64,000 nt of DNA from Curvularia clavata (GCA_023920165.1 CP089276.1:3968001-4032000); one strand, 5' to 3'. Shown: positions 45,611 to 57,800, counted from the first letter of the stretch. Notes: generated by a model not told the origin, from the sequence alone. A program made the numbers and translations.

Positions 45611-47179
45611 ATGTTGCTCACACTCTCTAACCCGGTCAAGCCCGACTTCGACTTCAAACCTCATGCCTACTCTGCAGCCTTTTCACCTTCTACCGCTACT
45701 CGATACTCTGACAAGCCCCACGGCGGGCCACCTCCCCCCTCACAGCCTGGCAACTCCTCTTCCACGATGAGCACGCCTCACCGAGGTCTTCCTCCACCCT
45801 CGGCAATGACTTTGCCTGAGCCGGCGCGAGGACCTCCACCAATGTCTTCCTCATTAGGCCAATTACCTCCTGCGCCTTCTCAATGGCAAGGCGCTGAAGA
45901 TGGTATGAAGAACTGGCTGGCGACCAAGGCCGAGGAGGAGAGACGAAAACAAGAGGAGGAAAAAACAAGACAGGAGACTTTACGGCTTGAGCAGCGCAAG
46001 GTCGAGCAGTCAATGCTTAGGGAATCCATGCAAGGCGGTATACCGCCTCATCTTGTGCCCATAATATTCGCTGGTATTGCTGGAGGCAGTCTTGCCAGCA
46101 TCAGTGCCGAATGGATACAGCAATACACATCACAGATCCAGGCTGCCCACCAACAAGCGCAGGCTCAGGTGCAACCACAACTCTCTCCAGATCTTCGACG
46201 GGATCCGAGGATGATCGGACAGCCACAGTCAACAACGTATGCGGGCCAACCCGGACAAACAATCGTTCCTCCAGCGGCCGTGCTTCCCGGCCAACCTCTA
46301 CCTTCACAAAATCAGCCAGCACCACTCTCTACTCCAGGGTACGCTCCTGGACAATTATCACCACGCGCGAGAGCTGCGCAAGCCGGTCTTGGTGGCCCTC
46401 ATCCATCAGTACCACGATCCTTACCACAATCCCAACTACCACGGTTAACAACCAACGAAATCACTATACAACAACCTCCTCCTACACCAGCCGGAGTGCA
46501 ACAACTACAACAGACGCAAACACAACAGCAAGAACAATCATCACCCTCCATCTACTTCCACCACTGGGTTCCTCCATCGTCTTCTTCACAAGAAAAGAGT
46601 TCGAGCGGGAACCCGCCAGCTACGCCTTCAGGTAAATACAAAACTTCGCCTGTTCACCAGTCACGGCAACGTGCAGCGTCGCATGCGTCTGACCTAGAAT
46701 ACACAAGCAGCTCCCCCAAAAAGCGCAAGGCTCAAGGCCCACACCAGCCAGCGCCACAACCTACATCGGCGCCAGGATCCAATGCATCGCCCTCCTTCTC
46801 GCACAAATCTTCGTCGTCAACGTCGACTCCAGGACAACGAGGACATGCTCGAAACCGATCTGATGCATCCACGCGGGCGCCGGACGCCTCCAGCGGTTCA
46901 CTGAGTCGTCGAGGTACCATCTCTGGACTCGCACACGAGACGATCGTGCGGCAGGGCGACAGAGCAGAAGAAGCGCGGGATGCTGAGAGCAAAACACATA
47001 CCAGTTCAGAGCAGGCATACGCAGCTCCGTCTCAGAGAAATGAGCAGCCAGGACACAGTCAGCCCAGTTACGCGCCGACATCTACTGCTGTTCAACCTGA
47101 AACCCCAAAGTATGGGGCACAACAGCATTGGGATCGGGGATATATGTCATCTCCTAAACGGGAAGTTGGGGACCATTAG
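45611..47179 (+). CDS. Low-complexity P/Q/S-rich hypothetical protein with a coiled-coil block
   Basis: 522-aa ORF with ordered-looking blocks WLATKAEEERRKQEEEKTRQETLRLEQRKVEQSML..GIPPHLVPIIF and SPSIYFHHWVPP, and an NLS-like PKKRK. Confidence 0.75.
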   Translation: MLLTLSNPVKPDFDFKPHAYSAAFSPSTATRYSDKPHGGPPPPSQPGNSSSTMSTPHRGLPPPSAMTLPEPARGPPPMSSSLGQLPPAPSQWQGAEDGMKNWLATKAEEERRKQEEEKTRQETLRLEQRKVEQSMLRESMQGGIPPHLVPIIFAGIAGGSLASISAEWIQQYTSQIQAAHQQAQAQVQPQLSPDLRRDPRMIGQPQSTTYAGQPGQTIVPPAAVLPGQPLPSQNQPAPLSTPGYAPGQLSPRARAAQAGLGGPHPSVPRSLPQSQLPRLTTNEITIQQPPPTPAGVQQLQQTQTQQQEQSSPSIYFHHWVPPSSSSQEKSSSGNPPATPSGKYKTSPVHQSRQRAASHASDLEYTSSSPKKRKAQGPHQPAPQPTSAPGSNASPSFSHKSSSSTSTPGQRGHARNRSDASTRAPDASSGSLSRRGTISGLAHETIVRQGDRAEEARDAESKTHTSSEQAYAAPSQRNEQPGHSQPSYAPTSTAVQPETPKYGAQQHWDRGYMSSPKREVGDH

Positions 47180-50100
47180 ATTGGGAAATGGTTTCAGCGG
47201 GATTGCCATACCCATCCGGATTGGCTATTACCTGGAATTCTCTATCGGCCCTTTGACACGCACTCTATCCCAGTCGTAACATCAGCCTAGGGAATACGAG
47301 TGCGAGAATAATACATACGAATTTAGGGCACATTGATTGTCATCAGACCGAATCCACTGCAAGATTATCTTGGCGCAAGGCTTTTTTTTTCTTTCCCACC
47401 CTCTAGACAATTGCTGTCATTTGCAAGCGAAATGAGCTCGACTCCACCGACTTCCACAATCCGGGTTTTCCCTTTCATCTCGAAATCTTAGTGCACGGCC
47501 CCAGAACCCCACCAGAGAACGACTATCCCAGTCTTGTAAAATTGCGGTCCAATATCGTTCCCACGGCTACGTACATTGGTCGCAATTTTACTCCAGAAGA
47601 GTTCTAGGCAAGTTGGCGATTCGCGAACCCGAGGTTAGTTCCGAACGCTTGGTATACATCCCTTTCGGGCATGGCTCCAATCTCGCAGGAGCGCATCTGG
47701 GTTTCTTTTTGGCAATCGCATGCTAGTAATAACTGGCGTTTTATCGCAACGCATCAACAACCGGTCAAAGCCTTTGGGCAAGCTTGCGACGCTCGGCAAC
47801 AGCTCACTTGCAGCGCTCAACGTGCTCATCATGACACGGCTGGCCGTGCTGTATTCTGCACGTTCGCCTCCCCACTTCCCGGCTTCACTCCTCTTGAGGG
47901 AAAAAGATGGGTCTCGTCAGCGTTACTGCGCTTTGATACTTGTTTTTATGCCAGCTTACGACCCCGCACGTTACGAAACATGCAACGTTTGCTTCTGAGG
48001 AGAGCGGATGTATGCGCCAAAACGGTTGGCTGTGTCGGAGGTTTTTTCCCTCTACTTGGCCTTCCAAGACGTTCCGTATTACCCAGCTTACTCGCCACCA
48101 TACAACCTTGGATTCATGCGCACGGCTTTTCTCTCGGTCGCGTCAAGATGACAAAAGCCGTTTAGCGCCGACTGATTACCTCGTCAGCTTTTCCTACTTA
48201 GGTCTATCTTACGATTTTCTGCGCCCACTTGACATCGACCGGTTCCGGAGCAACATCCTTGTGCTATAACATCAGGCCCAACGTCGTCAACCTCCTCCAC
48301 TCGGGCGCTGGTTTCTGGAGAATATTCCTCTTTCGTTGCCAATGTTCTGCTGGGGCTTATTGGCTTTGGAATGGGAGCCGATCTGGTCAAGCCCCTTTGC
48401 AAAGCTCACCGCCCTCCGCCTTTGACAATTTGCAACCTGGTCCACACGTGCCTACTGCTAATGGCACTTGTTCCGTGATTTTTGATCTTGTTACTGCACC
48501 GATGCGTGCATCTTGACGAAAAGACTAGCTACTTGGAATGGGAACGGGAGCCGTTTACAAAGAATGACATGCGTGGTATCCGGCATATCACACATCAGCG
48601 TCTTATCTTAGCACGTTCTCTATTCCAGTCCTTCTGGAACATCAGACTGGGAATCTTGAAACCGGCAAATATGCAATGAAGCGGCATTGTCTCGTTTCAC
48701 TGTTGTTTTGCAGCCTTACTCAACCTTGCCCGTTTGAGTATCCTTTTTCTCCACACGCTTTGGTTATCAGATTGTTCGTATATACCCACCCTTGTAGATT
48801 TCTCTTCTCACGTGGGCAAGCATATCCCATGCGACCTTTTTTTTCTACTGTTTTGGGTTAAACGCAGGGTTTCGTCGTTTTGCTCTTTCTGTCTCTCTTT
48901 CTCTTTCGGATTCCCTTTACCCCTTCCTAGTTTATCAGCTATTATGTAAGGTTGTTGGACTCAGCTCGGAGGTTTTTCTGCTTTGGTCCTGTTTACAGCT
49001 GTACATACTGCACCTGACCTGTCGTTTCTTCTTCTTTTTGGCTTTTACTTCTTGCTAAATCATAGCGTGGTGGGGAGGAGGTTTGAGCTTTGGCGGGTAG
49101 GGTGACTTGATCAAGTAGCCAATAGGCGCTGGAATGTTAGAAAACGAAATGGTATACCCTTATCACGGATGTAAACGCATCCGTGATGTTCTCGCAGCTG
49201 AGCGATTTGATGATGTTATAGTGACCCAACAAGGAAAAGAAGTGCAAGCACGTGTGATGATCGATCATCAAGTCTAGCATCAGAGACGATGGACTACGAA
49301 TCCCTTTTTTGAAGTGCATCAAAGAAAGACCATGTTACCCTTGTTTAGCATCATCGCGACCATCTTCTCCACCTTTGCTCTTTTCTTTTTCTGTCCCCTT
49401 CGCCTCTTGTCCTCTTTCCCTAAACGAACAACAAGAGCGCGCAAAATAAATAAACAAACAACCCATGCACTGAACATAGCCCCTGCAAAACCTTCCCTTT
49501 CTCCATCCGAGCCTCATGTCACATTTGCTGATCTCATCACTATTACCTCACCGGTACATGTAATGCCAAAAGCCTCATGCCCAACAAAAAGCAACCCATC
49601 ACGACACAGGTGTACAGAACGAGCAATCGTCAGACCATGAAAAAGCAAAATACCATACCCCCTTGTACCCGAAACGGGATCTCAGCGCCGGGATCCATCG
49701 ACCCGTATTCGGGAGATGGACATAGTTTTTCGATACGGGGGGGAAGGGGAAGGCTCCAGGGCCTCGGAGGGGAAGATCTACACGCAACCGCGCCTCTTGA
49801 TGTGTGTGGGGACACCATGTCTCGTCTGCAATGGGCGGTGAGAGATTGATTGGCGCTTGCAAGTATACACAGCTACAGCTGTGTGTTGCTTTTTTGCCGG
49901 AGGTAGGCGGGGCAAGGGGGTCAGCAGGAGGAGGCTATACTGCCTTGTAGCAAGCGTGTATATGGGGCTGGTTTGGAGTGGGATAATTGGGTGGGGGAGT
50001 GGTGCAAGGGCGGTGACGGAATAGTAATCATGTATGTAAGTATATCGTTGCTTTTAGTTCGGTAGTTAGGGGTGATGTTGGTGTGGTGGGGGCGAAGGAA

Positions 50101-51078
50101 GGGGGGATGGGGGCGGTGAGATGTAGAATCCCAGTGTTGTGGAATGTATACCTTGCTCTCACTTAGCTGGAGGATATGGTTGGACAAGGATAGGGGGGGT
50201 TGTTCGTCTTGGTGGATTGGGGCGGTTTGTGTGGTCGGGATAAAGTGATCTAAATGCGTAATTGTGGGGGGATGGCTGATCTGGTGAGGCAGCGGGGGCG
50301 AGAGAATGTGGAAGGGGGAAGATTTCTTCTTACGGCTATCGTAGAATGAACAAGGGATTGCTGGAAGGGGCTGATATGGACCCTGACTGGCTTGCTGTGA
50401 TGCGCGGAATGTTTTCTTTTTTTCTGCATCTTGCATCGGGGCGTTAAGTTTGCTTGGCGGAAAGGAGAAGGAGAAAATGGATCTCGTGTTGAATCGGCGG
50501 ATGCAAAGGGATGATCAATAGCCATTAGTGAAGCGGTTGTCGAGATAGCCGGAGAGAAGGTTGGGGAGATTGAAAGTTGTATCTAGATCCGATGGTCTTA
50601 GGCTAGATGCTCGAAGAATACATACACGCCGTTTGTGGATGTGCCTGCGTATAGCAGTACAATTATACCCCGATGGTATCAACCCATGTGCCTGTATCCA
50701 TGCTGGAGATCTGTATACACGCTACACATCTTGTGTCCCTGCAACACATATCCTCATGTAGTAGTACTCCTTCACGTTCAGTTGGCACGCATCAGCCACA
50801 CCTCTGCCCCACTTCGTGGCGCATGCCGTACCCCACCATCGGTGGTCCGTGATGCGGCGGTGGCAGCTGCAGCCTGAACATTCGGCGACAACAGCAAACA
50901 GCAATCACTTACTTTGCTGCCTGTAGTGCTATACAGCTCCGACCGAAATATTTATCCTGCGCTCCGGAATCTCTAGGATCTCAACCCTCCGACGAAGCAA
51001 GACGCGACTGTCACACGTGCTGCACATATATCCAACCATCGACGTCACTGAAGCGCGCGACACACAAGGACAGGCAAG

Positions 51079-51595
51079 ATGCTGATCAAGTACGTCCAAG
51101 GGCAGAGATTGTGCGGTCTAAGAAATAGAACAAATGCTGACAGAAGTGGTAGAGTACGAACACTCACTGGCAAAGAGATCGAGCTCGACATCGAGTCGGA
51201 CTACAAGGTACGCAGCCGCCAATCCACCATCGTCGCATAGGCACACTACCACCGCCACCGGGTCCTTCAGAACAGACAACTTGGACAAGGAATTTGAGGC
51301 TAGCTACAGAGTCAAGAGACTAACAGGGTACATAGGTCTCGAAAATAAAGGAGCGCGTCGAAGAGAAGGAGGGCATTCCACCTGCGCAACAGCGTTTGAT
51401 TTACGGCGGAAAGCAAATGTATGTCTCACATGTCCTTACATACGGCCCATGGCTTTCGATTCTTTCGTGCATAATGCCGTATGGACAGAAGCTAACACAA
51501 TCGTGTGCAGGAGTGACGACAAGACGGCGGCAGACTATCAGCTCGAGGGTGGCGCCACATTGCACTTGGTGCTTGCGCTTCGTGGTGGATTTTAG
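51079..51595 (+). CDS. NEDD8: NEDD8/Rub1 ubiquitin-like protein; introns 51090-51152, 51208-51335, 51419-51510
   Basis: Spliced 77 aa: [77 protein letters not shown]. Confidence 0.96.
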
Positions 51596-52216
51596 TTTCC
51601 CTCTTATCTCGATCTCCCGTCTGCATATCTACATCTGTCCAACTCACTTTCTACTGCCTAAGCGGACTCGGATATGTCGCTTTGAATGAATACAGAATAT
51701 TACCTCTACTTCATGCGCATGCCTCGGTACCTATCTAATGCCCGTGATTGAAATTTTCCATCGGTCGTTTGCAATTGGAGGACTCGAGACATGTCTAAAT
51801 GTATGCTACTGGGAATGGGTTGGTGCAACTACAAGCCTCTACTTTGCAGTAGCTTGAGAGCGTGAGCAGAGGGAGAGTGGATATCGCAGTGTGGGAGAAT
51901 TGCCTTGCGGTTTATGCAGGAAACGTGAAGTTCGTCGGACTGTGCATTCTATGATAGTTGCTGTCTTAGACTTCGCTTTGAATCAGATGTGTCACTTTCC
52001 TCTGTCGTTGAGGCCAGACTTGCTAACAAAGAGATGAACCAATATGTGAACTGTGGCCTAAAAGTTGGATTGATTTGAATGTTATTTCATTTTGGTTTAG
52101 AGTGTCGAAGTTACTCAAGTAGAGCAAAAATCGTTTGTAGCGTAATTTGATAGCATAAATATAACTAATCTTACTATCATCACACGTTTACAAAAAATAA
52201 CACCAGAAATAAGTAT

Positions 52217-52460
52217 AAAAAAATTGCCCCCGTCATCAAACGAACCCCAGCCTATATGCAACCTCGGCAGCGTCACATAAGAGTGGCCAGCTCATGTATG
52301 TGATTAACTCCGAAAGCCCATATAGTGGTTTGTATACGCCACGGTCACACAGCGGGTCCCTTTCGGGTCCAACCCCCATTTGCTTGTGTGCGGTGTGCCC
52401 ACCCCGACTAAGACGTCTCAAAGCCGAGTTGGGTGTATAGGTTGGTTCTGTTGGGAGATG
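52217..52460 (-). ncRNA. Candidate structured non-coding RNA of unknown family (possibly Pol III)
   Basis: Three long hairpins whose G-U pairs and CCC-GAAA-GGG tetraloop work only on the minus strand. 5'/3' ends are complementary. TATATAA lies ~25-30 nt upstream and a T7 run ends the unit. Confidence 0.55.
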
Positions 52461-54645
52461 ATAAACGTCAGGATTGTAGGAATTATATACACCAAGATAT
52501 CCCCGCACATAACCAACAGAGGCATGACGACGAACGGAAGGGATAGAGGAGCAAGCAAACAAACTGCTTACTCAGGTGCTCCAAATGTCACAAGTAAGGG
52601 ACAGTGAGGCATTAAAGCTACTGTTTTCCACGGCATGTACACCTACATCCAAGCATATACGCCAATGACACGGTTTATTCTTAGTCGACAACGCTTTTGT
52701 TTCGACCCGGAGGAAAACTGAATCGAGCGATGCATTTTGAAGCCGCTTACTGAGTCGACAGGTACCACACGAGAAAGAGACGGCTACACATGGCGCCTAT
52801 CAACCCAGCTCCACTCTGCACAACAAAGAGCCGTTTACCGTCTACTACCTTCAATTCAACTCGATGCATCACCTGTCCAAATATAACTTGTTCACGCTTC
52901 GCTACATTCCACATTCCTGCTAGAGGCTAGGCTTTAACCCGAGTTTCAATCGAGAAACAGTGCACTGTACTGTTCTTGGACATTGATGCTCACAGACTAT
53001 AACATCTGGCGCACTATCTGTGTCTGCTACCGCATCATGATCCCACCCACCACACACTCCATTCTGCAAAAGAGATGGTGGTTGTCCTTGCGCCCATCAT
53101 GTCAAAAAAAGACAGAGATTTCTGTTCCTGCGCCGGTATACGACAATAGACTATTAAAATGCTGCAGTATAGCATTACTGACAACGGAAAATCACAGTAT
53201 TCTTTACTCTCCCAAAAGAGCGCGTGCTCGTGCCATGATAGGAACAGCCTGAACACCACCGCCATATACCCGCCATCTCTCGAACATAACATACAAACCT
53301 AGAAACTACTGTAGCATGCTAAGTTGCCAAGCTCAAAAGACAAAAATGCGACCCACAATCAAGTAGTTAAACATCAATTCGGAAAGCAATCGCTGGTAGT
53401 AGTATAATAGAGTGAAGAAGATGCTTATCTATTCTAGAAGAAAATGTCGTATACCCACAGCCGGGGGATGATACATTCCTATACTACAATCCATTACCAT
53501 GCTACAATTCCATCTCTCTCTGTGTGTGTCTTTCTCACACATACTCACACAAGAACTCATTGGCATGACATCTTACATATATCTAGTATGCGTCATATCT
53601 TTATGTAATCTATGCGTTCGAAATAAACAGTGAGCGTTTCATCGCGTCAAGAACTACCCCATCTCCCTTGGAGCCAGTGAAGGCAGAAAGCATGACGCGT
53701 TTACATAGAGCCGGCACCTATACGCCATGAATCTTGATTGCCACGTGGCTGGGGTTAATTCTAGATAGCGAGACTAGGTTAGGCTATTTCAAAATGGTTA
53801 GACAAATGTCTGGATCGCGATCGAAATAAGTACGACGGCAAACTAAATTTATTTGTCCGATATAGGGCTGAAAGGGCTGTGCGGGATGACAGCGTGGCGG
53901 CGGGAGTGGGGGTGCGGTAGTGATGATGTCGTTGATGTTGAGGCTGATGAAACCTGATATACCATCGGGATCACGGGCTTGCGAAATCGCATGTCGCTGC
54001 GCTGAAGAACAAAGCCACATCTATGATATATGACGTAGTAGGCAGTAAAAGCAAAACACCAAAAAACAAGTCATGGATATATCGAAAGCCCAAGCAAGGT
54101 TGCGAAAGGGCGTGTGTGGAATTGATGAATCAAATATTTATTGTTCATATACTCTGTACATTTCCCAAGAAGTGGAGATGACGATATTCATCTGTCCAAA
54201 ACGTGGGCGTCGGCCGAAAAAAAAGAGTGATAAGAATAGAAGAAAGAGCAAGTTCAAGCAATCCCGGACGGGATTACACGAGGCTTGCATAATGGCAGAG
54301 GTATCTCGCCTCAGCCAGTCCTGTTGATCCAGATGCCAGCCAGGTAATCAAAAAAAGTACATTCAAAAACCGACCGTCCGTTTTGTGATCCGCCGTCATA
54401 AGGTAAAATCCAATGTACAAATGTGCGTATCGACGCGACAGTCCGCCTCCGTAACTCTGATTACGAAATAAAAAAAAACACGCTAAATGTGCAAATCAAA
54501 AGCCTTTCCATTAGGCACCAGAGAAGGAATGACGTGAAAAAGCCATACAACCAGGTACCGAAAGGAAGGTGAAATACAAATGTCAAGTAGAAACAAATGA
54601 AGAATAGTATGAAGAACAAGAAAAGGTCATGTCGTCGAAATCTCT

Positions 54646-54861
54646 CTAATTCGACCCTTCTCTAACGCTTTCGGTCGGGGTGCTGGGAAAGCTAAAGTCG
54701 ACGGGCGATGGGGGAGGAGCCGGAGTTTCGTTGAAACTTGAAGAGCGAGAGAGGCTGGCCGAGGCTTTGAAAGCGGCGCTGACATCGTGGCCAAGGGTCG
54801 TGTTGGTGAGGATGGAGAGGCGCTTGCGCGGGTTGAAGGGGGTTGTTGAGGTGGGCATCAT
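54646..54861 (-). CDS. Candidate 71-aa Ser/Pro-rich microprotein; probable 5'-UTR intron 55215-55094
   Basis: CATCAAAATG start context after a CA-rich leader, C-ending codon bias, and an upstream GTAAGT..CTGAC..TAG intron. It is the only plausible gene in ~5.5 kb. Confidence 0.55.
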   Translation of the reverse strand: MMPTSTTPFNPRKRLSILTNTTLGHDVSAAFKASASLSRSSSFNETPAPPPSPVDFSFPSTPTESVREGSN

Positions 54862-57800
54862 TTTGATGGTTGGTTGGTGTGATTGGTTAATTTGGAAGGT
54901 ATTGAAGTTGTTTGTATGTACAGCCAGTTGATTTCACAAGCAGTACGTAAAATTTAGCTTTGTTGTGGTGCGGAACCAAGCGGCGTCGCTGGGTGGGCAA
55001 TGAGCAAGATTATGTATTGATGGGCCGTGTGTTGGGTGTGTGACAATAGGCCGGCTGAGGACTGGGTTCGGCAGGAATAATCGAATGGTAAATCTAGAAA
55101 AGGGATGAGTCAGACGCTAATTGCCATGGATATGGAAGAAAGGCGAAGGCCGTGGCACAGGGCTGGGATTCTGGGGGATGCGCTGGCGTGCAGGCGAATG
55201 CAGGGTTACACTTACGTCTAGTTTCGGATGGAAGCAAGTGAGCGGACTGCAAGAATGTGTTGGCTAGCAGGCTGGTTAAGAGTATGTGGCAAGGAAGCGA
55301 GGTGGCTTGGTATAAAGTGAAGCAAGGGCTGACGTGTTTGAGGTACAAGACGGATGGTGAAAGGTAGTTCTCTCGGGAAGGATTGTAGAGAATTGACAAC
55401 TACCGCGTGGAAGGGGCGCTTGTCTTATACACGACGACCAAAGCAGGAGATCAAGCGATTATTCACCGCCGGAAGGACAAGCCTGACTCGCATCACTAGT
55501 ACTATTACAGGGCCCTTCCGGACGGGAAAGACGCTTTGAGCCAAAAGCAAAAAAGTGTATCAGGGCTTGAATCAAAGGGCGCGCCGGCAGCAAAGTCGGG
55601 GAAGCGGATGAATTGCGACAGGTTGCTTTGGCGGCCGACGTTGCACCTGGGGGCCCGCAAAGTCCAGGCCATGCCCGGACGGCGATCAGGGCTGCAGGCA
55701 AGATTCCTCATGTCAGAGGAAAGTGGCAGACGGGCCGAAGAAGCGAACCAATACGCTGTACGCCAGCGGGTGCCGGCGGGTGAAAGTTGGTCGCGACGTG
55801 ACGTGGGCTGCCTAGAGTGACAGCCAGCACAGAGAACGCGAGTAAAGAGAGTGAATGGTTTAGGTTCCCTGGCGTAAGCATCGTAACATCGAATGGCACC
55901 ATCGTCATCATCAGCATCATCATGACTGGGCAATCAGCCATGGCTAGGCCGGGCCGAGCATGCAATTCACTGACCGCTCCTCTATCAAGGCATGGATGGG
56001 AGATATGCACACATCCCACGCGAGGCTGGTAGTGGTGCGCGCCCATGGGATGCGTGTGGGATTAGGATGGGGAAAGTGGAGCTCCGGCCTTGATCCCCCG
56101 GATCCCAACGGCTTGGGATTCGCCCTCTCCTGAGAAACAAGGCGTATAGTTTGTATGCGCCCATATGCGCCCGTATGCGCCCACACCTACGCCTAGGCCT
56201 TTGCTCTCCACTCGACCTAGGCTTGCAGAGCTGGGTGAAGCGACAACCATGGACATCCTGGTGTGATGCGGGAATAAAAGGAATAACAAAAACAGTGATG
56301 CACACCCCGCGCGTCGGCTGTGGCATCAATCGCGTTCTTCGCTGAGATCAGGCTTCGAGAAGGCTGCTCGGAACAACGCTCGAGCCGGCATGTGTTCCGG
56401 GGGGAGTGATATTACCCACTCCGCACTCTACCCCTATCAAGCACGGTTACAGGTCTCGCGCAAAGAGTGACATGTTTGGCCCTTTTCCGCTGTCTTGTCA
56501 AGGACTACTATGTATCCGGCCGCCTTGTCCCTGCTATACTCTTGGCTAGGCATGGAGCCGTAGATCGGAAACTTTGGCGGCGTAGTCTTCCCTTCAGAAA
56601 GTCTCGACGAATCCATGTGTGCGACGTTCTGAGTAATTCGTAACTACCTTTGTGTCGTCCGCATCATCCGAACCATCGATCCGCGAGCCCATTTACTGAT
56701 AAGAATATGGACTGCCGAAAGTGCCCAACGCGCCCCCCGCAAACTGTGCGTCTTGTTTTTTCTTTTATCATTTTTCGCGACCTCATCATACTTTTTTTTG
56801 TTGCCAAGTTCATCAGTGGTAGCGTCGTTCCATGATCCGCGACGAATGGGAAGCCGTCGGGAGACTTGTGGTATACTTTAAGCATAAGCTAACGCAATTC
56901 CGACATCACCTCATGTTTCGACTACCAAGGGAGTAATACCATGCGAACTTTGTCCGGTGCTTTCCCCATCTTTGCTTGAATGATTGGAATCCCGCATTCC
57001 CCGCATTGGCCTACTGCACGGCCTGATCTGGGGCATCCTGATGTCCGCCTCATCTTGGGTCCTGTCGGGACAAAGCCATCCGCCATGGGTGTGCAACGTT
57101 GCCTGTCGGGGCTGGGGGAAATATACCGGCTTTTGCGCATCACGCTCGTGTGTCGTCCAGTTTGAAGGCTGCGTAATTGAAGTCGTGTTAGCGGGTTTCC
57201 CAAACCTTGCCTGTCCAATTGCAGCCTCGTCGACAACCATTGGCCTGCTTTTCTGACCGATGTGGGTGATTCAACAAACTTTGACCGCAACTCTGTAGAC
57301 CGCAACTCTCTAACGTGGATCCGTATTCTTGGACCTAAGGTGCTCACTAATTGGGCGAGCATGGAACTATTCCGTGAAGGGAGAGCGTGGAAGGGAAGAG
57401 AAAGCGGGAGAGCCCGCGGAAGTTGTTTGTCCCTACCAATACTGAGTGCTCTTTCCCTATCTAGCAACTGAGGCAGCCACCCACCGGCCTGCATTATTGT
57501 TTTTACTCAACCCCAACAACTGTGGCTTCTATTCTGGAACATTGCTTCCTAATATGGCAGCTTCCGATACTCCTATGCATAGCACTCAAACTGTGTGAGA
57601 TCTATTCGTGTCCTCCCCTTGAAACAGCTTGATGTGTGCTCGTATCACTTTCACCCGAGGGGCCGCACCGTCGTATCCGTGGATTCTGGTTGAGTTACCT
57701 CATGCCCAACTGATACTCTGGTTCCCCCACACGCGCAGTAGGTGTAGTTTGGTTTGAAGCTGTGATCTACGAGTCTTGGCTTATCGACAAAGTTGGTACA

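What the first reader, a model, noticed from the sequence alone, without database searches (positions are those of the whole stretch)
52217..52489. Candidate novel ~240-nt structured RNA gene with TATA box and oligo(T) end
Seen on the minus strand: TATATAA (52489-52483), then three hairpins and a T7 run (52223-52217). Hairpin 1 is CCCA-CUCGGCU/AGUCGGG-UGGG (52433-52398). Hairpin 2 is CACACA-GC/GC-UGUGUG enclosing CCC-GAAA-GGG (52397-52340). Hairpin 3 pairs CUAUAUG/CAUAUAG, GGCUUUCGG/CCGAGGUU and UCACAUA/UAUGUGA (52325-52252). The 5' AACAGAACCAACCUAUA can pair with the 3' UAUAGGCUGGGGUUCGUU, competing with the base of hairpin 3. Multiple G-U pairs and a GNRA loop are strand-specific, which argues for RNA-level selection. 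I could not find the hallmark motifs of U1-U6, U3, SRP, RNase P/MRP, 5S, tRNA or a telomerase template. Established: Neurospora milRNA precursors are Pol III transcripts ending at oligo(T). Inference: a stand-alone, possibly Pol III ncRNA or pri-milRNA of undescribed family.
Basis: partly seen in the sequence, partly recalled or inferred. Interest (0 to 1): 0.75.

Follow-up and report, generated by a model that had tools for sequence, protein, structure and literature searches.

The report
Possible small RNA gene, still unproven
A 270-base stretch beside the NEDD8 gene of a Pleosporaceae fungus looks like a small non-coding RNA gene and changes little in a close relative, but its fold is no better than chance and no RNA or distant relative could be examined.

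Summary
No Rfam family matches, and no hallmark motif of snRNAs, snoRNAs, RNase P/MRP, SRP or tRNA is present.

The fold is not special. Its z-score is -1.54, and 15 of 200 shuffles fold as well. Eight or nine of 63 control windows do as well. G-U pairs are fewer than in shuffles.

The organism is a Pleosporaceae fungus. The only comparative data are contigs of a relative about 96% identical:
- RNA body: 3 substitutions in 231 nt.
- TATA-to-start spacer: 5 in 27 nt.
- Past the T-run: 14 in 203 nt.

A scan statistic gives p = 0.24, and other conserved patches lie nearby.

The first ATG after the TATA box, which opens a 47-codon frame, is lost in the relative. No listed holder is on record as RNA, and no distant ortholog was obtainable.

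Verdict: a plausible stand-alone small ncRNA gene, at about 0.4. "Structured", "Pol III" and "pri-milRNA" remain unproven.

The parts
52483..52489 (-). TATATAA, candidate TATA box about 34 nt upstream of where the low-divergence block begins
   Evidence: Read directly. Unchanged in the relative's contigs, although position 52482 next to it changes. TATAWAW occurs only 6 times on both strands of the 64-kb window.
52456..52482 (-). Variable spacer between the TATA box and the putative RNA start
   Evidence: 5 substitutions in 27 nt (52456, 52462, 52467, 52469, 52482) in X7, shared by X14.
52224..52455 (-). Putative RNA body of about 232 nt. The true 5' end is unknown and is guessed at 52455-52460.
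   Evidence: 3 substitutions in 231 nt (52244, 52378, 52410) and one 1-nt deletion at 52224 in the X7 contig. No Rfam match.
52398..52433 (-). Hairpin 1, 11 pairs including 2 G-U. It is the only hairpin clearly better on the minus strand.
   Evidence: -17.2 kcal/mol and z -3.3 on minus, against -9.3 and z -1.3 on plus. The change at 52410 falls in its internal loop.
52340..52397 (-). Hairpin 2, with the CCC-GAAA-GGG tip
   Evidence: z -1.0 on minus and -1.3 on plus, so unremarkable. The change at 52378 falls in its unpaired stretch.
52252..52325 (-). Hairpin 3, 74 nt, three stacked helices of about 23 pairs. It is the only pre-milRNA-like element.
   Evidence: -25.0 kcal/mol and z -3.1 on minus, z -3.8 on plus. 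No substitution in the relative.
52227..52231 (-). GGGGG, the 3' strand of the closing helix, paired with CUCCC at 52457-52453
   Evidence: MFE. The relative's change at 52456 turns a U-G pair into C-G.
52217..52223 (-). T7 run, candidate Pol III terminator
   Evidence: Read directly. The run is kept in the relative, where the 1-nt deletion lies in the CAA before it. The 203 nt beyond it carry 14 substitutions and a 4-nt deletion.

Best explanation
This is a stand-alone gene for a small non-coding RNA of about 235 nt on the minus strand, convergent with NEDD8. Transcription would start about 30-35 nt below the TATATAA box (near 52455-52460) and end in the T7 run (52223-52217).

The most likely polymerase is Pol III using a TATA-dependent promoter without internal A or B boxes, as shown for Neurospora milR-1. 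The RNA would fold into three hairpins closed by a 5'/3' helix, with a free U tail. It could act either as the RNA of a small RNP or as a precursor cut from hairpin 3 into small RNAs.

What is shown: the motifs, the lack of coding capacity, the lack of any known family, and reduced divergence of exactly this interval in one closely related lineage.

What is inferred: that it is transcribed at all, its ends, the polymerase, the fold and any function.
For: Architecture:
- The TATA box, a roughly 232-nt body and the T7 run are all present.
- TATAWAW is rare in the window, 6 on both strands.

Divergence in the X7 contig (52014-52860, 32 other letters and 5 gap letters, 31 of them listed):
- Body 52225-52455: 3 of 231 (1.3%).
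- Spacer 52456-52482: 5 of 27 (18.5%).
- 52014-52216: 14 of 203 (6.9%), plus a 4-nt deletion.
- 52483-52687: 8 of 205 (3.9%).
- Fisher tests: body against the rest, p = 0.015. Body against spacer, p = 0.0004, which is post hoc.
- The body's rate equals that of the 260 nt just after the NEDD8 stop codon, 3 of 260 or 1.2%.

Effect of the four changes in or at the unit:
- 2 are unpaired, 1 turns U-G into C-G in the closing helix, and 1 breaks an A-U pair.
- The variant is as stable on the reference fold, -82.5 against -81.4 kcal/mol.

Not coding:
- The first ATG after the TATA box, at 52379-52377, opens a 47-codon frame. It becomes ACG in X7 and X14.
- 0 of the 5 ORFs of at least 55 codons (stop to stop) that overlap 52217-52489 has a Pfam hit.
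- The 111-residue frame has no relative among 1.84 billion representatives apart from one chance hit.

Single copy: there is no second copy in the window, and one Logan contig runs through the unit into both flanks.

Precedent: passages of PMC3547838.
Against: - The fold is no better than chance. z = -1.54 with 15 of 200 shuffles as good, and 8-9 of 63 control windows are as good.
- The fold is not strand-specific and is poor in G-U pairs.
- Repeated UAUA motifs allow several competing pairings.
- The constraint evidence rests on one lineage about 4% away. X14 shares X7's changes, and X11 and X19 show no substitutions.
- A scan statistic for any 231-nt window with 3 or fewer changes gives p = 0.24.
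- Low-divergence patches are common in the laid stretch: 51600-51859 at 1.2% and 52688-52860 at 0.6%.
- Two of the 6 TATAWAW sites in the window are followed by a T-run.
- There is no A box within 2 mismatches on the minus strand, and only a poor B-box-like match.
- No covariation test was possible.
Confidence: 0.4

Rival explanations
1. This is ordinary intergenic DNA that makes no discrete RNA. The hairpins, the TATA-like heptamer and the T-run are chance features of moderately AT-rich spacer. The low divergence is either sampling noise or reflects a DNA-level element such as a regulatory region of a neighbouring gene.
For: - The fold z-score is unremarkable.
- The fold works almost equally well on both strands and has few G-U pairs, as DNA inverted repeats would.
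- The scan statistic gives p = 0.24.
- Other conserved patches without any annotation lie close by, for example 52688-52860 at 0.6%.
- Two of the 6 TATA-like sites are followed by T-runs.
- No Rfam family matches.
Against: - The low-divergence block starts about 34 nt below the TATA box and ends at the T-run.
- The most variable DNA lies directly outside both ends, 18.5% and 6.9% against 1.3%.
- For the pre-defined interval, p = 0.015-0.03.
Confidence: 0.3
2. The stretch is part of a longer Pol II transcript. That could be a long non-coding or antisense RNA starting at the TATA box and running towards the 3' end of NEDD8, or an unannotated UTR or exon of a gene in the 5-kb stretch without recognisable ORFs. 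On this reading the T-run is not a terminator.
For: - A TATA box at about -34 fits Pol II as well as Pol III.
- 51600-56900 holds no ORF with a Pfam match. Among the 104 ORFs tested across 47200-57000, 1 had a hit, and that was NEDD8. Unannotated transcripts are therefore plausible.
- The body's divergence equals that of the stretch after the NEDD8 stop codon.
Against: - Divergence jumps to 6.9%, with an indel, right after the T-run, so any constrained part ends there.
- There is no usable ORF. The 47-codon frame loses its ATG in the relative.
Confidence: 0.2
3. It is a diverged member of a described RNA family, such as an atypical snoRNA or an RNase MRP-like RNA, that Rfam models fail to recognise in Pleosporales.
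For: - From my own knowledge and untested here, Rfam covers filamentous-fungal snoRNAs thinly.
- A UGAUGA motif lies near the 3' end, at 52238-52233.
- The unit has a closing 5'/3' helix followed by a U tail.
Against: - Rfam gives nothing at gathering thresholds.
- With E up to 10 on 266 and 901 bases, only a bacterial narK motif on the other strand (17.5 bits against a cut-off of 43.2) and DicF (14.2 bits) appear.
- No family-defining motif is in the right place:
  - The only RUGAUGA on the minus strand is at 52183, outside the unit.
  - The CUGA sites lie upstream, at 52471 and 52575.
  - No ACA follows hairpin 3. The last ACA in the body is at 52297.
  - There is no Sm site in the unit, no CR-I-like motif on the minus strand, and no snRNA signature.
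Confidence: 0.05

Closest known systems
Neurospora crassa milR-1 primary transcript, a Pol III-made pri-milRNA (PMC3547838; abstract and passages read)
   Same: - It is a short intergenic unit: pri-milR-1 is about 170 nt, and this unit about 235 nt.
- It has a TATA-like element, and a T cluster directly downstream.
- It has no conventional A or B box (here; stated for milR-1 in the paper).
- It contains a long imperfect hairpin (hairpin 3 here).
   Different: - No sequence similarity was tested, because no milR-1 sequence was at hand.
- The host is from a different class (Dothideomycetes, not Sordariomycetes).
- This unit has three hairpins and a closing helix rather than one precursor hairpin.
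- No small-RNA, Dicer or Pol III data exist for it.
Small Pol III RNAs closed by a 5'/3' helix and ending in a U tail, such as RNase MRP/P RNA, SRP RNA and Y RNA (the resemblance is recalled, not tested)
   Same: - The 5' and 3' ends pair (CUCCC with GGGGG), followed by a single-stranded U run.
- The size class is 100-350 nt.
   Different: - None of their conserved motifs is present.
- No Rfam model matches.
Independently transcribed fungal snoRNA genes (C/D and H/ACA)
   Same: - It is a small stand-alone gene with an upstream TATA box.
- It carries a UGAUGA motif and ANANNA-type motifs.
   Different: - The box order and positions are wrong for C/D.
- There is no ACA after the last hairpin for H/ACA.
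- Hairpin 3 has an internal loop, but its lower stem of about 16 pairs is too long for a pseudouridylation pocket. That spacing rule is recalled.

Membership tests
Any Rfam 15 family (4227 models) | A covariance-model score at or above the family's gathering threshold | tested here: not met
   There are 0 matches in the whole window. At E up to 10 only narK (17.5 bits against 43.2, plus strand) and DicF (14.2 against 48) appear. There are 0 matches at E up to 1 in 47200-57000.
Box C/D snoRNA | RUGAUGA near the 5' end, CUGA near the 3' end, and the ends paired in a short terminal stem | tested here: not met
   The only RUGAUGA on the minus strand, at 52183, lies outside the unit. The UGAUGA at 52238-52233 is preceded by U and sits at the 3' end. 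The CUGA sites, at 52471 and 52575, lie upstream of the putative start.
Box H/ACA snoRNA | Hairpin, ANANNA hinge, hairpin, then ACA three nucleotides from the 3' end | tested here: not met
   ANANNA sites exist, for example at 52335 and 52331 between hairpins 2 and 3. However, the last ACA in the unit is at 52297, inside hairpin 3, and none lies between hairpin 3 and the T-run.
Spliceosomal snRNAs U1, U2, U4, U5, U6 | An Sm site (or the U6 ACAGAGA box) plus the family's signature motif | tested here: not met
   There is no Sm-like site within the unit, the nearest being at 52132 with 1 mismatch. There is no ACAGAGA, no U1 5' motif, no U2 branch-point motif, and no U5 loop motif on the minus strand. 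The motifs used were recalled consensus strings.
RNase P / RNase MRP RNA | Conserved regions CR-I and CR-V forming helix P4 | tested here: not met
   There is no CR-I-like motif on the minus strand within 1 mismatch (recalled motif). No Rfam RNase P or MRP match appears even at E up to 10.
SRP RNA | A helix 8 motif with a GNAR loop and conserved internal loops | tested here: not met
   No Rfam SRP model matches at E up to 10. The crude motif scan found nothing inside the unit.
tRNA or tRNA-derived SINE (type 2 Pol III promoter) | A cloverleaf, or internal A and B boxes, and for a SINE many copies | tested here: not met
   ARAGORN finds 0 genes in the window. No A box lies within 2 mismatches on the minus strand, and the best B-box-like site has 2 mismatches (52374). 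There is no second copy in the window, and one contig spans the unit and both flanks. The whole genome could not be searched.
Pol III pri-milRNA of the milR-1 type | A T cluster directly downstream and a TATA-like element at the promoter | tested here: met
   T7 at 52223-52217 and TATATAA at 52489-52483. The criteria come from passages of PMC3547838.
Pol III pri-milRNA of the milR-1 type | A short discrete primary transcript, Pol III occupancy and inhibitor sensitivity, and small RNAs of about 19-25 nt from a hairpin arm | not testable with these tools
   No listed holder is on record as RNA, and the single read-laying run is spent. The re-analysis of fungal hairpin small RNAs, PMC9757828, does not mention Pleosporaceae genera in its main text: 0 occurrences for 5 of the 6 names searched and 1 for Alternaria, as a homology target. 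Its supplements were not read.
Protein-coding gene or micro-ORF | A conserved open frame with a start codon and relatives | tested here: not met
   The first ATG after the TATA box opens a 47-codon frame (52379-52236) and is ACG in X7 and X14. None of the ORFs over the unit has a Pfam hit. The 111-residue frame has one hit among 1.84 billion representatives, a repetitive bacterial surface protein matched through its 5 repeats, which is chance.

The most novel reading that the evidence does not exclude
This is a Pleosporaceae-restricted small RNA of about 235 nt from a family not yet described. It would be made by Pol III from a TATA-only promoter without A or B boxes, closed by a 5'/3' helix with a U tail. 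It would act either as the RNA of an unknown RNP or as a multi-hairpin precursor of microRNA-like RNAs. That would extend the unconventional Pol III promoter type known from Neurospora milR-1 to Dothideomycetes.
Probability: 0.25. Interest if true: 0.55.

Novelty: new member of a known kind. Interest (0 to 1): 0.3.

Why it matters
If real, this would add a lineage-specific small RNA gene to a group of fungi that includes many cereal pathogens and has almost no annotated non-coding RNAs. It would also give a second, independent example of a TATA-driven small RNA unit ending in a T-run in filamentous ascomycetes.

It would not settle any long-standing question. As it stands, it is a candidate for a Northern blot, not a discovery.

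Tried and rejected
- **Whole genome.** None is held for this window, so genome-wide copy number and paralogs could not be checked.
- **Sequencing runs.** No RNA holder was listed. The four runs labelled "RNA?" of the same species hold next to none of the words, which is no evidence either way.
- **Read laying.**
  - The "RNA?" run X19 has contigs only at 52022-52176 and 53045-53100, with no cover on the unit.
  - All holders turned out to be close relatives at 95-100% identity, not distant ones.
- **NEDD8-anchored search for syntenic orthologs.**
  - The exon query was too short.
  - A longer reference gave NEDD8 proteins.
  - The metagenome scan with P0071 kept 80 loci out of 349 confirmed. 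The top-ranked ones match residues 1-76 in about 228 nt, that is, without introns.
  - The five loci I inspected (L001-L005) look like transcripts, and two of them (L003, L004) carry a convergent protein-coding ORF after NEDD8.
  - BLASTN of the unit against all 80 loci gave only one 13-nt match.
- **Pattern scans with two motifs of the unit.** The scan of genome contigs gave 3 loci, all Burkholderiales MAGs, with no wider similarity. The scan of viral contigs gave 0.
- **Translated-frame search for relatives' spurious ORFs.** It gave 1 hit, a repetitive bacterial surface protein, which is chance.
- **Covariance model.** A two-row self-alignment was made (A1), but no model was built. 237 columns exceeds the practical calibration limit, and no relevant target DNA was held.
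- **Bacterial-type promoter and terminator scan.** It is irrelevant for a fungus and found nothing notable.
- **Literature.**
  - One paper holds "Pleosporales", "snoRNA" and "non-coding RNA" together. It is a collection of genome announcements, seen only in the search listing.
  - I made no other search for a described RNA at this locus, so I make no claim that it is absent from print.
- **Readings rejected.**
  - A solo LTR or SINE: it is single copy in the window and a contig spans it, though this is weakly tested.
  - A telomerase template: there is no CCCTAA.

Full report
**What is there**

On the minus strand the window reads TATATAA (52489-52483), a 27-nt spacer, about 232 nt that can form three hairpins (52433-52398, 52397-52340, 52325-52252), and then CAA followed by seven T (52223-52217). 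The minimum-free-energy fold also pairs the two ends, CUCCC 52457-52453 with GGGGG 52231-52227. This leaves the U run single-stranded.

**Context**

- The best relatives of a 522-residue protein encoded at 45611-47176 are from Pleosporaceae: Bipolaris maydis 88%, Stemphylium 84%, Alternaria 79%. The organism is therefore a Dothideomycete of that family.
- The plus-strand gene ending at 51595 is NEDD8. It has four exons and a Pfam ubiquitin hit on its third exon.
- The unit is convergent with NEDD8 and begins about 620 nt after its stop codon.
- Of 104 stop-to-stop ORFs of at least 55 codons in 47200-57000, only the NEDD8 one has a Pfam hit.
- There are no tRNA genes in the window.

**Is it more than chance?**

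The fold is not.
- The tool gives z = -1.54, with 15 of 200 shuffles as stable.
- My own shuffles of several boundary choices give -1.2 to -2.1 on either strand.
- Among 63 arbitrary 244-nt windows of the same strand, 9 have z <= -1.42 and 8 have z <= -1.54.
- Hairpins 1 and 3 alone reach about -3.1 to -3.3, but their limits were picked to fit.

- The MFE has 8 G-U among 83 pairs, and 129 of 150 shuffles have at least as many.
- Mirroring the fold to the plus strand costs 7.5 kcal/mol. Shuffles lose a mean of 15.5, and 146 of 150 lose at least as much.
- Only hairpin 1 clearly prefers the minus strand.
- Four UAUA-type motifs allow competing pairings.

The TATA-plus-T-run pairing is not rare either. 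TATAWAW occurs 6 times on both strands, and 2 of those 6 are followed by a run of 6 or more T at 150-400 nt.

**Known families**

- Rfam gives nothing at gathering thresholds for the whole window.
- With lax filters it gives only a bacterial narK motif on the other strand (17.5 bits against 43.2) and DicF (14.2 bits).
- It gives nothing at E up to 1 in the surrounding 9.8 kb.
- A motif scan with recalled consensus strings finds no correctly placed C/D or H/ACA boxes. It finds no Sm site in the unit, no snRNA signatures, no CR-I-like motif on the minus strand, no telomerase template and no A box. The best B-box-like site has two mismatches.

**Coding capacity**

- The first ATG after the TATA box opens a 47-codon frame (52379-52236).
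- That ATG is ACG in the related lineage.
- The whole 111-residue frame has no relative among 1.84 billion representatives. The single exception is a repetitive bacterial surface protein, matched through its five repeats, which I take as chance.

**Comparative evidence**

No genome is held, and no listed holder is on record as RNA. The 19 holders of part of the stretch looked at first like conservation across organisms. When four of them were laid, they proved to be fragmentary contigs of near-identical fungi.
- X19 and X11 show no substitutions. X11 has only a 4-nt deletion at 52162.
- X7 and X14 share one diverged lineage.
- X7's 842-nt contig (52014-52860) carries 32 other letters, 31 of them listed, and 5 gap letters.

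Divergence by segment:

| Segment | Substitutions | Rate |
|---|---|---|
| 52014-52216 (downstream) | 14 of 203, plus a 4-nt deletion | 6.9% |
| 52225-52455 (body) | 3 of 231 | 1.3% |
| 52456-52482 (spacer) | 5 of 27 | 18.5% |
| 52483-52687 | 8 of 205 | 3.9% |
| 52688-52860 | 1 of 173 | 0.6% |
| 51600-51859 (after the NEDD8 stop codon) | 3 of 260 | 1.2% |

For the body it is p = 0.015.
- The block of low divergence begins about 34 nt below the TATA box and ends at the T-run. The TATA box and the run itself are unchanged. This is what a small independent gene would show.

Three things count against over-reading this.
- It is one lineage about 4% away.
- A scan statistic for any such window gives p = 0.24.
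- About half of the laid non-coding DNA is equally conserved.

The four changes in or at the unit are all U to C on the minus strand. Two are unpaired, one improves a U-G pair to C-G in the closing helix, and one breaks an A-U pair. The variant is as stable on the reference fold. That is too little for any covariation statement.

**Attempts to reach distant orthologs failed**

- The NEDD8-anchored metagenome scan kept 80 loci. The top-ranked ones are intron-less, and none resembles the unit.
- A two-motif pattern found only three bacterial chance matches and nothing in viral contigs.
- There is no second copy in the window, and one contig runs through the unit into both flanks. Both argue weakly against a repeat.

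**Reading**

The best single explanation, at about 0.4, is a stand-alone small non-coding RNA gene.
- A TATA-only, T-run-terminated unit has a documented precedent in filamentous ascomycetes. In Neurospora the pri-milR-1 transcript is about 170 nt, a T cluster follows the major milR genes, milR-1 lacks A and B boxes, and its TATA-like elements are needed for milR-1 production, one of them shown necessary for Pol III binding (PMC3547838, abstract and passages).
- Hairpin 3, with about 23 pairs in 74 nt, is the only part that looks like a small-RNA precursor.
- Transcription, polymerase, ends, fold and function are all inferred.

The rivals are:
- Untranscribed intergenic or regulatory DNA (0.3).
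- Part of a longer Pol II transcript (0.2).
- A diverged member of a known family (0.05).

**Novelty and score**

If real, this is a new member of a known kind: a lineage-restricted small RNA, possibly made by Pol III. Interest is 0.3.

Noticed in passing
window 52688-52883: This is a second low-divergence patch, 200-400 nt upstream of the unit. The X7 contig has 1 substitution in 173 nt of it, and the X14 contig 52734-52891 has 2 other letters. It has no Pfam hit, no Rfam hit and no obvious motif. Its nature is unknown.
   Followed up: partly
window 47200-57000: This is nearly 10 kb in which only NEDD8 is recognisable, with 1 of 104 ORFs giving a Pfam hit. No ORF of at least 180 codons lies between 47179 and 56922. 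That is unusually gene-poor for this window and may hold unannotated small genes or non-coding transcripts.
   Followed up: partly
window 51079-51595 (+): The NEDD8 gene has four exons and three short introns. Its first exon is only 11 nt, by my reading of the splice sites in the sequence printed. Database ORF calls from relatives read through the last intron, for example P0004, P0009 and P0016.
   Followed up: partly
window 3448-3265 (-): This is the only other TATAWAW in the window that is followed by a T-run (T6) at 150-400 nt. The sequence was read. It shows no similarity to the unit and has no Rfam hit.
   Followed up: no
window 49800-50400 and 54600-55300: There is strong G-over-C skew on the plus strand, up to +0.65 and +0.50. 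On the minus strand these are long C-rich tracts. They may be promoter-type pyrimidine tracts, but I did not examine them.
   Followed up: no
window 51894-51979: The relative's contig fits here at under 90% identity (15 other letters in 86 nt) and runs on into unlike sequence at both ends (tables 7 and 8). This suggests an indel or rearrangement between strains just downstream of the NEDD8 3' flank.
   Followed up: no
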